Below, piece after piece: positions 6,124 through 49,727 of a stretch of 64,000 bases of DNA. The stretch is taken from the sequence record OR670491. One strand, 5' to 3'. The stretch's first letter is position 1. The number at the start of each line of letters is the position of its first letter. Under the pieces are notes generated by a model, which ran no database searches, was not told where the DNA came from, and worked only from the letters and a program-made list of their open reading frames with translations. Made by a program: the position numbers and the translations under genes. This DNA comes from Escherichia phage vB_EcoM_JNE01.

Positions 6124-6534
6124 ATGATTGAAATGGAAGGAACTCTGGTGTATGATCCAGATCGTGGCACTATGAAAAAGAAGAAGGACTTCTGGTTAGT
6201 ACTGCAACTTCCATTACAGTTGGTTCGATACTACCAGTACTTCATCAGAACTGACTTACATATTGATATTAAAGACCCACAATGGGGAGCACATGTCAGT
6301 ATCGTTCGTGGTGAAGTGCCACCAAATCCAGAGTACTGGAAAAAGTACGATGGTATGAAAGTTAAGATTAAGTTCGAACCTTTCATCGAAGAAGTAAAAG
6401 ACAATAAGAAACCTGGGTCATTCTTTATCATAGAGTTTGAAGATGATTTCATTGCACAAATTCGTGATGAACTTGGTTTAGCATCTAAATATTTCAAATA
6501 TCACATCACCATTGGTAGAACATACTACGATTAA
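6124..6534 (+). CDS. 2H phosphoesterase superfamily protein (LigT/cyclic phosphodiesterase-like; possibly Acb1-like)
   Basis: Two H-x-[ST]-x motifs (HVSI near residue 57, HITI near residue 127) in a 136-aa protein, the 2H hallmark. Confidence 0.5.
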   Translation: MIEMEGTLVYDPDRGTMKKKKDFWLVLQLPLQLVRYYQYFIRTDLHIDIKDPQWGAHVSIVRGEVPPNPEYWKKYDGMKVKIKFEPFIEEVKDNKKPGSFFIIEFEDDFIAQIRDELGLASKYFKYHITIGRTYYD

Positions 6535-6557: not shown

Positions 6558-6585
6558 TTGATATAACTAAAAAGTATGCTATACT
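6558..6585 (+). promoter_or_regulatory. sigma70-like promoter (TTGATA, 16-nt spacer, TGcTATACT)
   Basis: Motif upstream of the endolysin gene. Confidence 0.4.
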
Positions 6586-6701
6586 ACTTAAATGTTCCAA
6601 AGAACAACTGAGTACTGTAGAAAGTCCAATGAGGCTTTTGCAAATGGCCTCTTTGCCCTCTTTGTGATTGCTCATTGTTAACAACCAACAAAGGAGGCGT
6701 T

Positions 6702-7628
6702 TTGAAAAAAGCGAAAAAAGCACTGAAAACTAAAATTGCCGTAGGCGTATTAGTTTCATCAGCCCTATTCGCTGCTATTGGATTTTATGGTTTTTCTCAA
6801 AGTGATCATGTACCATCATTAGACGAAAGTCAGGTGCATAATTTAAAACCACAGTTTACTCAAATTCAAAAGCAGGAACTACCACAGGTATCAGTACCAA
6901 AAGCAGTTCCAAGCAGCGAGAAACATTATACGGTTCAACCTGGAGATAGTTATTATTCTATTGCACAGAAATTTAAACCTAAAAATGTACAGATTGAAGA
7001 TTATGTCATTTTGTTGAAGAACATCAACTTAAATGCAACTCTTCATACTTCTCAGGGTATCTTTATCCCAACAAAAGAGGATTTGAAGAACGTATTGTTA
7101 CCAGATGTGACTGTACTGTTTGATTATAAAGATCCAGAAATTGTCAATCACATCAAAGAAGCTGAAGGTTCTATTGAATTTCAGTCCAAGAACAAACGAC
7201 GTTTACTTGGTGGGAAAGTTGGAGTTCCATATCGAAATTCTAAATTTTATCCGTATCGTGATATAAAAGGTAACTTCACTATTGGGTACGGACATTATCT
7301 TGGAAAGAAAGAATCAGATGCAAGTAAGTATCGTAATGGTATTACGAAGTCACAAGCACATAAACTTTTATTGTCTGACATGGAACGAACTAATAATGAT
7401 TTAGTTTTATTATTGAAGAAAAGAAATGCAACAAACCTTACGGCTGAACAGCAACGAATTTTATTTGAGATGGCATTTACATTAGGAGTTGATAAGTTAA
7501 ATACTTTCAATAAATTATGGAAAAGCGTTGATAATCAAAATGATAACAAGTTCAAAAAAGAAATTAAGAATTCTCTATGGTATCGTCAAGTAGGAAACCG
7601 TGCAGAATTGTTAGTTAGTAATTTGTAA
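6702..7628 (+). CDS. endolysin: N-terminal membrane anchor, LysM domain, T4 e-type (GH24) lysozyme domain
   Basis: TIGYGHYLGK and SLWYRQVGNRAELLV match the T4 lysozyme catalytic region; YTVQPGDSYYSIAQKF is LysM; hydrophobic IAVGVLVSSALFAAIGFYGF. Start set to TTG after AAAGGAGG; ORF track begins at 6675. Confidence 0.8.
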   Translation: MKKAKKALKTKIAVGVLVSSALFAAIGFYGFSQSDHVPSLDESQVHNLKPQFTQIQKQELPQVSVPKAVPSSEKHYTVQPGDSYYSIAQKFKPKNVQIEDYVILLKNINLNATLHTSQGIFIPTKEDLKNVLLPDVTVLFDYKDPEIVNHIKEAEGSIEFQSKNKRRLLGGKVGVPYRNSKFYPYRDIKGNFTIGYGHYLGKKESDASKYRNGITKSQAHKLLLSDMERTNNDLVLLLKKRNATNLTAEQQRILFEMAFTLGVDKLNTFNKLWKSVDNQNDNKFKKEIKNSLWYRQVGNRAELLVSNL

Positions 7629-7677: not shown

Positions 7678-8310
7678 ATGATATATAATGTTGGTATAAA
7701 TGATGTACCAGGTGATTCTAAATCGGATAGTGATGGTTATTATATATATGTGAAATGGAAAAGTATGATTAAACGATGCTACTCAGTTGAATATCAAAAA
7801 ATACACCATTCATATATTGGAACAACTGTATGTAATGAATGGCTTACATATTCAAATTTTAAAGATTGGTATCTAAATAATTACATAGACGGGTATGTTT
7901 TAGATAAAGACTTGATATCGGGTGATTTACAAGTATACTCACCAGTGACATGTTCATTTGTACCACAAGAATTAAATTGTTCTATTCTTGAAAGTAATAG
8001 TGCTAAAACAAAACTACCATTGGGTGTGTCATATCAACAGAAAACTAAAAATATGATAAATGAACGTTCGAAACCATATGATTCATATATAAAAATGTAT
8101 GGTAAGTTGTATCGTCTTGGTAGTTATGAATGTCCTGAACTTGCACATAAAGAATGGCAAATCGCCAAGAAAAAATATCTCGAAGAACTCATTGACAGAT
8201 ATAAAAATTCTGTTAAAATGGAAGTCATAGAAGGTATTCAGAAACGAATTGATATATTACATAATGATATAGTCAATGACGGTGTTACAATAACAATCAA
8301 TAAGATATAA
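7678..8310 (+). mobile_element. free-standing HNH (HNH_3)/AP2-type homing endonuclease gene
   Basis: Pattern YxxWxxMxxRCY ... VCxEW ... LDKD ... YSPVTC and AP2-like GVSYQQKTKNM; very AT-rich, bracketed by terminators. Confidence 0.5.
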
Positions 8311-8322
8311 GGTAGGTAAATT

Positions 8323-8649
8323 ATGCTAAATTTCGTTATCCAAGGTAATGTAGATGTTACTCCAGCAATTCATGACGCAATCCGCGATGAAGCAACAGTA
8401 CTAAGTAAATTTAGTGATGCTTCAGTACTGAATCTTGGTGTTCATCTGAAGAAAGAGCATAAAACACAGTACACTGTAACACTAACTTCTAATGGTAAGT
8501 CTGTTACTGCAAATGCAGCAGATTTATACAAAGCGATTAGTGATTCATTTGAAAAAATGGAAGTTGTACTTGGTAAAGACAAAAGCATTAAACTGCATCG
8601 TCGTAACCACCCAACACGTCCTCTGGACTTGACAGAAGACGAAGAGTAA
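8323..8649 (+). CDS. ribosome hibernation factor (HPF/RaiA/YfiA family)
   Basis: 108-aa protein collinear with E. coli YfiA/HPF as recalled: VTPAIHDAIRD, NLGVHLKKEHK, TVTLTSNGKSVTANAADLYKAISDSFEKMEVVLGK. Confidence 0.7.
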   Translation: MLNFVIQGNVDVTPAIHDAIRDEATVLSKFSDASVLNLGVHLKKEHKTQYTVTLTSNGKSVTANAADLYKAISDSFEKMEVVLGKDKSIKLHRRNHPTRPLDLTEDEE

Positions 8650-8660
8650 TTTATAATAAA

Positions 8661-8690
8661 GGGACAGTATATTTCTGTCCCTTTTCTTTT
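8661..8690 (+). terminator. intrinsic terminator (GGGACAG/CTGTCCC)
   Basis: Stem-loop followed by TTTTCTTTT. Confidence 0.65.
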
Positions 8691-8704
8691 TGGAGTTTTT
8701 TAAT

Positions 8705-49378: not shown

Positions 49379-49727
49379 TTGACAAAATATCTTTATTAAC
49401 GTATAGTGATTTTACCCATTTACCATCAATTTTTAGAAATATATCAACAATCCCTTCACTGTTAGTTTGGAAATATGTATAATTATTTTTACCGATATCA
49501 TCTGAAGGGATGGCTTCACCAAACATTACGGTTGGGTGATCTTCTAGATACTTAACATTGACAGCAGAATCGGCATCAACCGCAGACCCTACTTTAACTG
49601 GTAGAAATTTTTCACCAAATGAATCCTTTATTGAAATGGAATCATCTGAAAAACTAATCAAGGCTCCTTTTTTACCAAGGATGAATGAGGGCTGCATGGT
49701 TCCTTCTAAATTAGAAAAAACTGACAT
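49302..49727 (-). CDS. tail spike N-terminal anchor module (frame-separated from the depolymerase)
   Basis: MSVFSNLEGTMQPSFILGK; GGGGG SD; overlaps the depolymerase ORF by 77 nt in another frame. Confidence 0.5.
   Translation of the reverse strand: MSVFSNLEGTMQPSFILGKKGALISFSDDSISIKDSFGEKFLPVKVGSAVDADSAVNVKYLEDHPTVMFGEAIPSDDIGKNNYTYFQTNSEGIVDIFLKIDGKWVKSLYVNKDILSSVNGRRLYWIDNRRNTSTSTVLCNS

What the first reader, a model, noticed from the sequence alone, without database searches (positions are those of the whole stretch)
8323..8649. Phage-encoded ribosome hibernation factor homologue
The 108-aa product is collinear with bacterial HPF/RaiA over its whole length and sits in the early region behind its own terminator. 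A phage copy could silence host ribosomes or modulate translation during takeover.
Basis: partly seen in the sequence, partly recalled or inferred. Interest (0 to 1): 0.6.

Follow-up and report, generated by a model that had tools for sequence, protein, structure and literature searches.

The report
Jumbo phage RaiA-like ribosome factor
This gene of a ~350-kb E. coli phage does encode a relative of the bacterial proteins that park idle ribosomes, but it is already annotated and published for this phage group, and what it does during infection has never been tested.

Summary
The ORF at 8323..8649 (+, 108 aa) is real and codes for protein. It scores above Pfam's threshold for Ribosomal_S30AE (43.9 bits against 23.7). 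[quoted passage not shown] The window is an Asteriusvirus-like jumbo coliphage (121Q/PBECO4 group). The identical protein is already annotated "ribosome hibernation promoting factor" in phage Turkey5, and RefSeq calls the 121Q and PBECO4 orthologues "HPF/RaiA family". The syntenic orthologue in Cronobacter phage GAP32 was reported by Mizuno et al. 2019.

What I add:
- The protein is built like RaiA, not like HPF. It is a short form with a conserved tail whose R93-R94 align with RaiA R95-R96, and it ends in acidic residues. No phage record encodes RMF.
- It is the last gene of a lysozyme-(HNH)-HPF unit that ends at a conserved terminator.
- A conserved sigma70-consensus promoter has its -35 hexamer inside the tail codons.

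The most likely mechanism, which is inferred, is RaiA-like occupation of the 30S decoding centre on vacant ribosomes, excluding RMF. "Early region" is plausible but not shown. The existence of the gene is already known; its function is open.

The parts
8323..8649 (+). CDS of a 108-aa HPF/RaiA-family protein: S30AE domain about residues 2-94, disordered tail 95-108 ending in LTEDEE
   Evidence: conserved in 42 phage records; dN/dS 0.18-0.27
8310..8316 (+). Shine-Dalgarno-like AGGTAGG, 6 nt before the ATG; the same sequence precedes the 121Q orthologue
   Evidence: read from the sequence
8658..8694 (+). Intrinsic terminator ending the HPF transcription unit: AAAGGGACAG-N7-CTGTCCCTTT followed by a T-run
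   Evidence: the hairpin is conserved in 121Q, A4, Ecwhy1, Hallingskeid, Munch, GAP32 and a metagenomic contig
8629..8657 (+). Perfect sigma70 consensus TTGACA-17-TATAAT. The -35 hexamer lies in HPF codons L103-T104 and the -10 lies just after the stop codon. It would start a transcript at about 8664, inside the 5' arm of the terminator stem, and so escape termination and serve the next gene (ATG 8705)
   Evidence: the start site is inferred, not mapped
6558..6585 (+). Candidate promoter of the lysozyme-(HNH)-HPF unit: TTGATA-16-TATACT with an extended -10 TG, conserved within Asteriusvirus
   Evidence: consensus match only
6675..7628 (+). LysM plus phage-lysozyme gene, the first gene of the putative unit (the true start is probably the TTG at 6702, after AAGGAGG). 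It abuts the HPF gene directly in relatives that lack the HNH insert
7678..8310 (+). HNH homing-endonuclease-like ORF inserted between the lysozyme and HPF genes. It contains a promoter-like site at 8192-8219 (11 of 12, with TG) that could also drive HPF in this phage

Best explanation
The gene encodes a vertically inherited jumbo-phage member of the HPF/RaiA (S30AE) family with the architecture of RaiA (YfiA/pY). It has a single b-a-b-b-b-a domain followed by a short flexible tail that carries a basic pair and an acidic end. Shown here: the family membership, the fold, purifying selection, conserved synteny, the position of the gene at the end of a transcription unit closed by a conserved terminator, and sigma70-type promoter matches upstream. 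Inferred: it is made from host-RNA-polymerase promoters together with the LysM-lysozyme gene. It binds vacant host 30S/70S ribosomes in the decoding centre, as RaiA does, using K29-F30, the beta-sheet centre and the basic face of helix 2. There it overlaps the mRNA and the A/P-site tRNA positions. Its tail runs towards the RMF site, so the ribosome is held as a stable, idle 70S monomer and RMF/HPF-driven 100S dimerisation is excluded. The likely benefit to the phage is to keep the pool of idle ribosomes intact and out of the host's own hibernation programme during a long infection. Family membership is about 0.97 certain; the mechanistic part is much less so, and the confidence given is for the whole statement.
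For: - Family and fold: Pfam PF02482 above its gathering score; predicted fold b-a-b-b-b-a with all 37 top PDB hits HPF/RaiA/pY, TM 0.6-0.78.
- Closer to RaiA than to HPF: BLASTP against E. coli RaiA gives 30% identity over 80 aa (E 2e-5) and no alignment to E. coli HPF. NCBIfam RaiA scores 22.1 bits against 17.4 for HPF.
- Tail: phage R93-R94 align with RaiA R95-R96, and the acidic end LTEDEE matches RaiA VEEVEEE. R94 and the terminal E are invariant across the 12-member phage clade. In K. quasipneumoniae YfiA, R95 and R96 are strong ribosome contacts (R96 also contacts uS7), and the tail heads to the RMF site (10.1101/2025.10.07.680626).
- Other contact positions retained in the alignment: K29-W30 -> K29-F30, K80 -> K78, K87 -> K85, T53 -> T53.
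- Charge: overall charge equals that of E. coli RaiA (pI 6.19 against 6.20).
- Partner: no RMF in any phage record.
- Selection and synteny: dN/dS 0.18-0.27. The order lysozyme-HPF-...-CCA enzyme-Nudix-glutaredoxin is kept in Asteriusvirus, Hallingskeid, Munch, GAP32 and a metagenomic contig.
- Transcription signals: promoter and terminator layout.
- Precedent: Mizuno et al. proposed that viral HPF might compete with the host homologue and prevent ribosome dimers.
Against: - No experiment exists for this lineage.
- The rV5 phage HPF, from another lineage, was expressed in E. coli but not found in high-salt-washed 70S ribosomes.
- The equivalent of RaiA/HPF R83, a conserved rRNA contact, is V or T in the phage clade. 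K91 is I in Asteriusvirus. Helix 1 is 3 charges less basic than in RaiA.
- The protein fails the equivalog cutoffs of TIGR00741, NF007654 and NF007780.
- The L-T residues of the tail are at least partly constrained by the overlapping -35 hexamer, so tail conservation is not purely a protein-level signal.
- A RaiA-like factor would also inhibit ribosomes the phage needs, so the benefit is not obvious.
- Expression timing is unknown.
Confidence: 0.5

Rival explanations
1. HPF-like hibernation promoter or host shut-off factor. The protein binds host ribosomes early and, alone or with host RMF, drives them into inactive 70S/100S particles to silence host translation during takeover.
For: Same family and fold as HPF. 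The host supplies RMF. Sigma70-type promoter matches nearby are compatible with early expression.
Against: No BLASTP similarity to E. coli HPF. It carries a RaiA-type tail, which in RaiA heads into the RMF site. It has no long-HPF dimerisation domain at 108 aa. No phage record encodes RMF. HPF/RaiA factors bind only vacant ribosomes and would not discriminate host from phage messages (established knowledge of the family).
Confidence: 0.15
2. Diverged domain that no longer acts in the canonical ribosomal site. It could be a decoy that titrates a host factor, or a binder of another RNA; the fold resembles double-stranded-RNA-binding domains.
For: The rV5 phage HPF was not recovered with 70S ribosomes. 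The R83 equivalent is lost and helix 1 is less basic. The clade is isolated, with only 4 representatives below E 1e-10 among 1.84 billion proteins. It is below the equivalog cutoffs. Weak BFVD matches to DRBM proteins.
Against: Most contact positions and the RR pair are retained and invariant. The overall charge pattern is the same as RaiA. All strong structural matches are ribosome-bound hibernation factors. The rV5 preparation used stringent salt washes, which the authors themselves give as a possible cause.
Confidence: 0.17
3. Ribosome shield against damage. The protein has the same binding site, but its selected function is to protect 16S rRNA and the subunit interface from host nucleases or defence effectors, as part of a local module that maintains RNA and the translation apparatus.
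For: Neighbours include a weak 2H-phosphoesterase match, a CCA-adding enzyme and a Nudix hydrolase, with an RNA ligase nearby in Hallingskeid. Hibernation factors are reported to protect ribosomes (abstracts).
Against: This is guilt by association only. No defence system that targets the decoding centre is tied to these phages here. The reading overlaps with the best explanation and does not exclude it.
Confidence: 0.13

Closest known systems
E. coli RaiA (YfiA, protein Y; b2597)
   Same: S30AE fold. Similar length (108 against 113 aa). 30% identity over 80 aa. K29-aromatic30. Basic residues of helix 2 at K80/K87. An RR pair at the end of helix 2. A flexible tail with an acidic end. Identical counts of K+R, D+E and H.
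   Different: Far below the RaiA equivalog cutoff (22.1 against 158 bits). The R83 and K91 equivalents are not basic. Helix 1 is less basic. A 3-residue shorter beta2-beta3 loop. Encoded by a phage and placed behind a lysozyme gene.
E. coli short HPF (YhbH; b3203) acting with RMF
   Same: Same Pfam family and fold; same predicted binding pocket on the 30S subunit.
   Different: No BLASTP alignment. HPF ends just after helix 2 (95 aa) and has no tail. It works with RMF, which no phage record encodes.
Phage HPF homologues of Mizuno et al. 2019 (GAP32 gp183; rV5-like phages)
   Same: GAP32_183 is the syntenic orthologue: lysozyme - HNH - S30EA - ... - CCA enzyme - Nudix - glutaredoxin. It has the same tail type (KGKR...STEDNEE) and the same promoter-hairpin layout downstream.
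   Different: GAP32 is only ~24% identical in the structural alignment. The rV5-type proteins (105 aa) were not found by tblastn with this protein, so they appear to be a separate lineage; that is the lineage tested experimentally.
Long HPF of Firmicutes, Thermus and others
   Same: The N-terminal domain is homologous. The best Foldseek hit is Listeria HPF 8uu7_w, and the best sequence-based PDB hit is the HPF chain 9t0z_9.
   Different: It lacks the C-terminal dimerisation domain (108 against ~180-190 aa), so it cannot dimerise ribosomes by that route.

Membership tests
HPF/RaiA superfamily (Pfam PF02482 Ribosomal_S30AE) | Profile score above the curated gathering threshold | tested here: met
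   43.9 bits against 23.7, E 4e-11, profile positions 7-84 of 88
HPF/RaiA superfamily (Pfam PF02482 Ribosomal_S30AE) | [quoted passage not shown] | tested here: met
   AF2 elements E2-8, H14-30, E36-46, E49-56, E59-65, H68-94. All 37 best PDB matches are HPF/RaiA/pY
HPF/RaiA superfamily (Pfam PF02482 Ribosomal_S30AE) | Basic track on helix 2 and the K29-aromatic30 contact to 16S rRNA (positions 80, 83, 87, 91, 95 in YfiA) | tested here: inconclusive
   By alignment only: K29-F30, K78, K85, R93 and R94 are retained; the R83 equivalent is V/T and the K91 equivalent is I, with K87 and K90 flanking it
HPF/RaiA superfamily (Pfam PF02482 Ribosomal_S30AE) | Binds the 30S decoding centre of vacant ribosomes | not testable with these tools
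   Needs ribosome co-sedimentation or cryo-EM. The only phage test (rV5 HPF) was negative under high salt
NCBIfam TIGR00741 (HPF/YfiA equivalog) | Score above the curated cutoff | tested here: not met
   34.3 against 40.9 bits
RaiA / YfiA subtype | Short form with a C-terminal tail beyond helix 2 (RR pair, acidic end) | tested here: met
   R93-R94 align with RaiA R95-R96; LTEDEE against VEEVEEE. The tail is conserved across the phage clade and disordered in the model
RaiA / YfiA subtype | NCBIfam NF007654 equivalog cutoff | tested here: not met
   22.1 against 158 bits
RaiA / YfiA subtype | Excludes RMF and prevents 100S formation | not testable with these tools
   Needs sucrose-gradient profiles
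Short HPF (gammaproteobacterial YhbH type) | NCBIfam NF007780 equivalog cutoff; ~95 aa ending after helix 2 | tested here: not met
   17.4 against 125 bits; no BLASTP alignment; the phage protein has a 14-20 aa tail
Short HPF (gammaproteobacterial YhbH type) | Co-occurring RMF partner in the same genome | tested here: not met
   No RMF homologue in 50,697 phage records; the host has rmf
Long HPF | C-terminal dimerisation domain (~180-190 aa in total) | tested here: not met
   108 aa, single domain

The most novel reading that the evidence does not exclude
The phage protein is an anti-hibernation factor. By occupying the HPF/RaiA pocket and projecting its tail into the RMF site, it stops the host from locking ribosomes into 100S dimers. 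The host might do this on entering stationary phase, or as part of a dormancy-type antiphage response; RMF is reported to rise in DRT2-mediated defence (PMC13434031). The phage would then release or tolerate the 70S pool for its own translation. The arrangement in which the tail codons double as the -35 element of the next operon would then be a compact early-gene switch conserved across Rak2-like jumbo phages.
Probability: 0.2. Interest if true: 0.65.

Novelty: already known. Interest (0 to 1): 0.3.

Why it matters
Phage-encoded hibernation-factor homologues are one of the few cases where a virus carries a protein that plugs the decoding centre of the ribosome, and no one has shown what any of them does. 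If the RaiA-like reading is right, these jumbo phages interfere with the host's ribosome hibernation programme and do not simply copy it. That would connect ribosome dormancy with phage-host conflict. As a genome-scan finding, though, the gene is already annotated in several GenBank and RefSeq records and discussed in two papers. The value here lies in a sharper subtype assignment and clear experiments, not in discovery.

Tried and rejected
- The word-indexed homologue search returned only 10 close phage relatives. The exhaustive profile search was needed to reach other lineages.
- Two strong-looking hits there, P0011 (1605 aa, 29 stretches) and P0037, are tandem-repeat proteins whose weak repeat matches add up. 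I rejected them as spurious.
- BLASTP to E. coli HPF gave nothing.
- tblastn of E. coli RaiA against phages did not reach this clade at E 1e-3, so recent capture from the host is rejected.
- The RMF search in phages found nothing.
- The search for related loci in viral contigs returned only 2 loci, too few for a distribution analysis.
- The conserved non-coding block upstream of the lysozyme gene had no Rfam match at E<=1, no covariation in its 6-bp hairpin and an unremarkable fold energy (z -0.41). It occurs once per contig in 4 viral contigs and is not repeated in the window beyond chance. A general promoter motif is therefore rejected, and a structured RNA is unsupported.
- The idea that the gene is kept only as a carrier of the promoter is rejected, because dN/dS is 0.18-0.27 over the whole gene, and because in GAP32 the -35 lies after the stop codon yet the acidic tail is kept.
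- The 'peptidyl-tRNA hydrolase' annotated nearby in Turkey5 is not supported by Pfam for the window orthologue.

Full report
**Observation.** The window holds an ATG-initiated ORF at 8323..8649 on the + strand, 108 codons, exactly as reported. A Shine-Dalgarno-like AGGTAGG lies at 8310-8316. The product scores 43.9 bits (E 4e-11) against Pfam PF02482 Ribosomal_S30AE, above the gathering score of 23.7, with residues 9-87 covering profile positions 7-84 of 88. The NCBIfam HPF/YfiA equivalog TIGR00741 aligns residues 5-88 but stays below its cutoff (34.3 against 40.9). The RaiA and HPF equivalog models score 22.1 and 17.4 bits against cutoffs of 158 and 125. PHROGs places it in phrog_34864 (unknown function, E 2e-45) and more weakly in the S30EA phrog_8990. 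By sequence, the 16 best PDB hits, and 18 of the 24 listed at E up to 10, are HPF/RaiA/pY-family chains. [quoted passage not shown] All 37 best Foldseek matches in the PDB are HPF, RaiA/YfiA or pY chains, most of them solved on ribosomes.

**What genome this is, and whether the gene is new.** The surrounding DNA matches Asteriusvirus-type jumbo coliphages (121Q, PBECO4, Ecwhy_1, Turkey5, 347-386 kb).
- tblastn finds the protein in 42 phage records. It is 100% identical in Escherichia phage Turkey5, where it is annotated "ribosome hibernation promoting factor". The RefSeq records of 121Q and PBECO4 call the orthologue "HPF/RaiA family ribosome-associated protein". Others use "ribosome-associated inhibitor A" or "sigma 54 modulation protein / S30EA".
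- The Sharanji genome paper lists it among translation-related genes (PMC11895373).
- Mizuno et al. 2019 (PMC6375957) reported PF02482 proteins in Cronobacter phage GAP32 and in rV5-like coliphages. I checked that GAP32_183 sits in the same gene order (lysozyme - HNH - S30EA - ... - tRNA nucleotidyltransferase - Nudix - glutaredoxin), so it is the syntenic orthologue of the window gene.

The existence of the gene is therefore already known. I found no functional study of this lineage.

**Is it a working gene?** Within Asteriusvirus, pairwise dN/dS is 0.18-0.27 at dS 0.54-0.79. The gene order lysozyme - HPF - ... - CCA-adding enzyme - Nudix - thioredoxin/glutaredoxin is kept in 121Q, A4, Ecwhy_1, Erwinia phage Hallingskeid (51% identity), Salmonella phage Munch (38%), GAP32 and a 103-kb metagenomic contig. 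An exhaustive profile search of 1.84 billion representatives gave only 41 hits at E<=1e-3 and 4 below 1e-10. The nearest non-Asteriusvirus relatives lie on contigs of up to 258-351 kb. tblastn with host RaiA does not reach this clade. The gene is thus an old, vertically inherited component of this jumbo-phage lineage, not a recent capture from E. coli.

**Which kind of hibernation factor?** At 108 aa the protein lacks the dimerisation domain of long HPFs.
- Against the host's own paralogues, taken from the K-12 record, BLASTP gives 30% identity over 80 residues to RaiA (E 2e-5) and no alignment to HPF.
- In multiple alignments, E. coli HPF ends just after helix 2. The phage protein continues with a tail of the same length as RaiA's. 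Phage R93-R94 align with RaiA R95-R96, and the acidic terminus LTEDEE aligns with VEEVEEE.
- Across a 12-member alignment of the phage clade, K29, K87, L91, R94 and the terminal E are invariant. GAP32 also ends KGKR...STEDNEE.
- A recent cryo-EM study of YfiA-bound ribosomes reports a basic track at positions 80, 83, 87, 91 and 95. It reports strong contacts by R95, R96 (R96 also to uS7) and K29-W30, contact of T53 with m2G966, and a tail that runs towards the RMF site (10.1101/2025.10.07.680626).
- By alignment the phage protein keeps K29-F30, T53, K78 (=K80), K85 (=K87) and R93-R94. It has V/T at the R83 position and I at the K91 position, with K87 and K90 flanking it. Helix 1 is three charges less basic than in RaiA, while overall pI and charged-residue counts equal those of RaiA.
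- No RMF homologue exists in any of 50,697 phage records.

I conclude that the protein has RaiA-like architecture within the HPF/RaiA family. It is an orthologue of neither E. coli protein.

**Transcription context.** A strong hairpin with a T-run lies 9 nt after the stop codon (8658-8694; -15.2 kcal/mol, z -4.0). It is conserved in every relative examined. It follows the gene, and no terminator-like site lies between the gene and its upstream neighbours.

In relatives the LysM-lysozyme gene abuts the HPF gene with a 14-25 nt gap. The HPF gene is therefore most simply the last gene of a unit that starts upstream of the lysozyme gene, where Asteriusvirus genomes share TTGATA-16-TG-TATACT (window 6558-6585).

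A perfect TTGACA-17-TATAAT lies at 8629-8657. Its -35 hexamer is formed by codons L103-T104. GAC TTG ACA GAA is identical at synonymous sites in Hallingskeid and Munch, although synonymous differences elsewhere are near saturation (pS 0.55-0.68). The other leucine nearby uses CTG, TTA, TTG and CTA. A transcript started about 7 nt after the -10 would begin inside the 5' arm of the hairpin and would lack the terminator. The layout therefore reads as "stop the upstream unit, start the next one".

Matches of at least 11 of 12 to the sigma70 consensus number 16 in the window, all on the + strand, against 3.6 expected. Five lie between 8.1 and 11.4 kb. This makes transcription by host RNA polymerase, and hence early or middle expression, plausible. 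It is still a consensus argument, and the same + strand block continues into the tail sheath gene at 15383. "Early region" is therefore unproven.

**Mechanism.** Established knowledge of the family is that RaiA binds vacant ribosomes in the 30S decoding region, overlaps mRNA and the A/P-site tRNAs, stabilises 70S, and antagonises RMF/HPF-dependent 100S formation through its tail. On that basis the best-supported reading is that the phage protein does the same on host ribosomes. Membership, fold, retained contact residues and the tail are shown. Binding, RMF exclusion and the benefit to the phage are inferred. Mizuno et al. had already suggested that viral HPF might compete with the host protein to prevent dimers.

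Evidence against this reading:
- The rV5 protein was absent from salt-washed 70S ribosomes. That is a different lineage, and the washes were stringent.
- The R83 equivalent is lost.
- The tail's L-T residues are also constrained at the DNA level.

Rival readings are an HPF-like silencer used for host shut-off, a diverged non-ribosomal RNA binder or decoy, and a shield against nucleases suggested by the RNA-maintenance genes nearby.

**Verdict.** The finding is already known at the level of annotation and literature. The increments here are the RaiA-type assignment, the lack of a phage RMF, the operon layout, and the promoter embedded in the tail codons.

Noticed in passing
window 7678-8310 (+): A 210-aa HNH homing-endonuclease-like ORF (phrog_953, E 8e-68) sits between the lysozyme and HPF genes. 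It is absent at this site in Turkey5, 121Q, A4 and Ecwhy_1. A ~51% identical homologue occupies the same junction in Salmonella phages Munch, 7t3 and SE_PL and in Klebsiella phage fENko-Kae01, and a split copy does so in GAP32. This looks like a recurrently invaded site.
   Followed up: partly
window 8629-8694 (+): A composite signal: a perfect sigma70 consensus promoter whose -35 lies in the last codons of the HPF gene, followed at once by the terminator hairpin. It is conserved from Asteriusvirus to Munch, GAP32 and a metagenomic contig. In GAP32 the -35 lies after the stop codon.
   Followed up: yes
window 6615-6651 (+), upstream of the lysozyme gene: The non-coding block TGTAGAAAGTCCAATGAGGCTTTTGCAAATGGCCTC is almost invariant across Asteriusvirus, Hallingskeid, Munch and a metagenomic contig, although the flanks diverge. 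It contains a 6-bp hairpin with no covariation. It has no Rfam match and occurs once per genome. Its function is unexplained.
   Followed up: partly
window 6654-6698 (+): The predicted leader fold pairs GCCCUCUUUG with CAAAGGAGGC, which would sequester the Shine-Dalgarno sequence of the lysozyme gene. Hallingskeid has a matching CUCCU/AGGAG, but support is weak and the fold energy is not better than shuffles.
   Followed up: no
whole window: All 16 matches of at least 11 of 12 to the sigma70 promoter consensus are on the + strand (3.6 expected on both strands together). This includes sites at 49379, 53271, 56367 and 62838, in stretches where the long ORFs are on the - strand.
   Followed up: no
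window 6124-6534, 9803-10915, 11023-11424 (+): The neighbourhood holds RNA- and translation-related genes: a weak 2H-phosphoesterase (2H-SAK) match, a CCA-adding tRNA nucleotidyltransferase and a Nudix hydrolase. Hallingskeid has an RNA ligase just upstream. No tRNA genes lie in this window.
   Followed up: partly
window 6675 vs 6702: The mechanical ORF for the LysM-lysozyme gene starts at the TTG at 6675. The conserved AAGGAGG and the annotations of relatives point to the TTG at 6702 as the real start.
   Followed up: no
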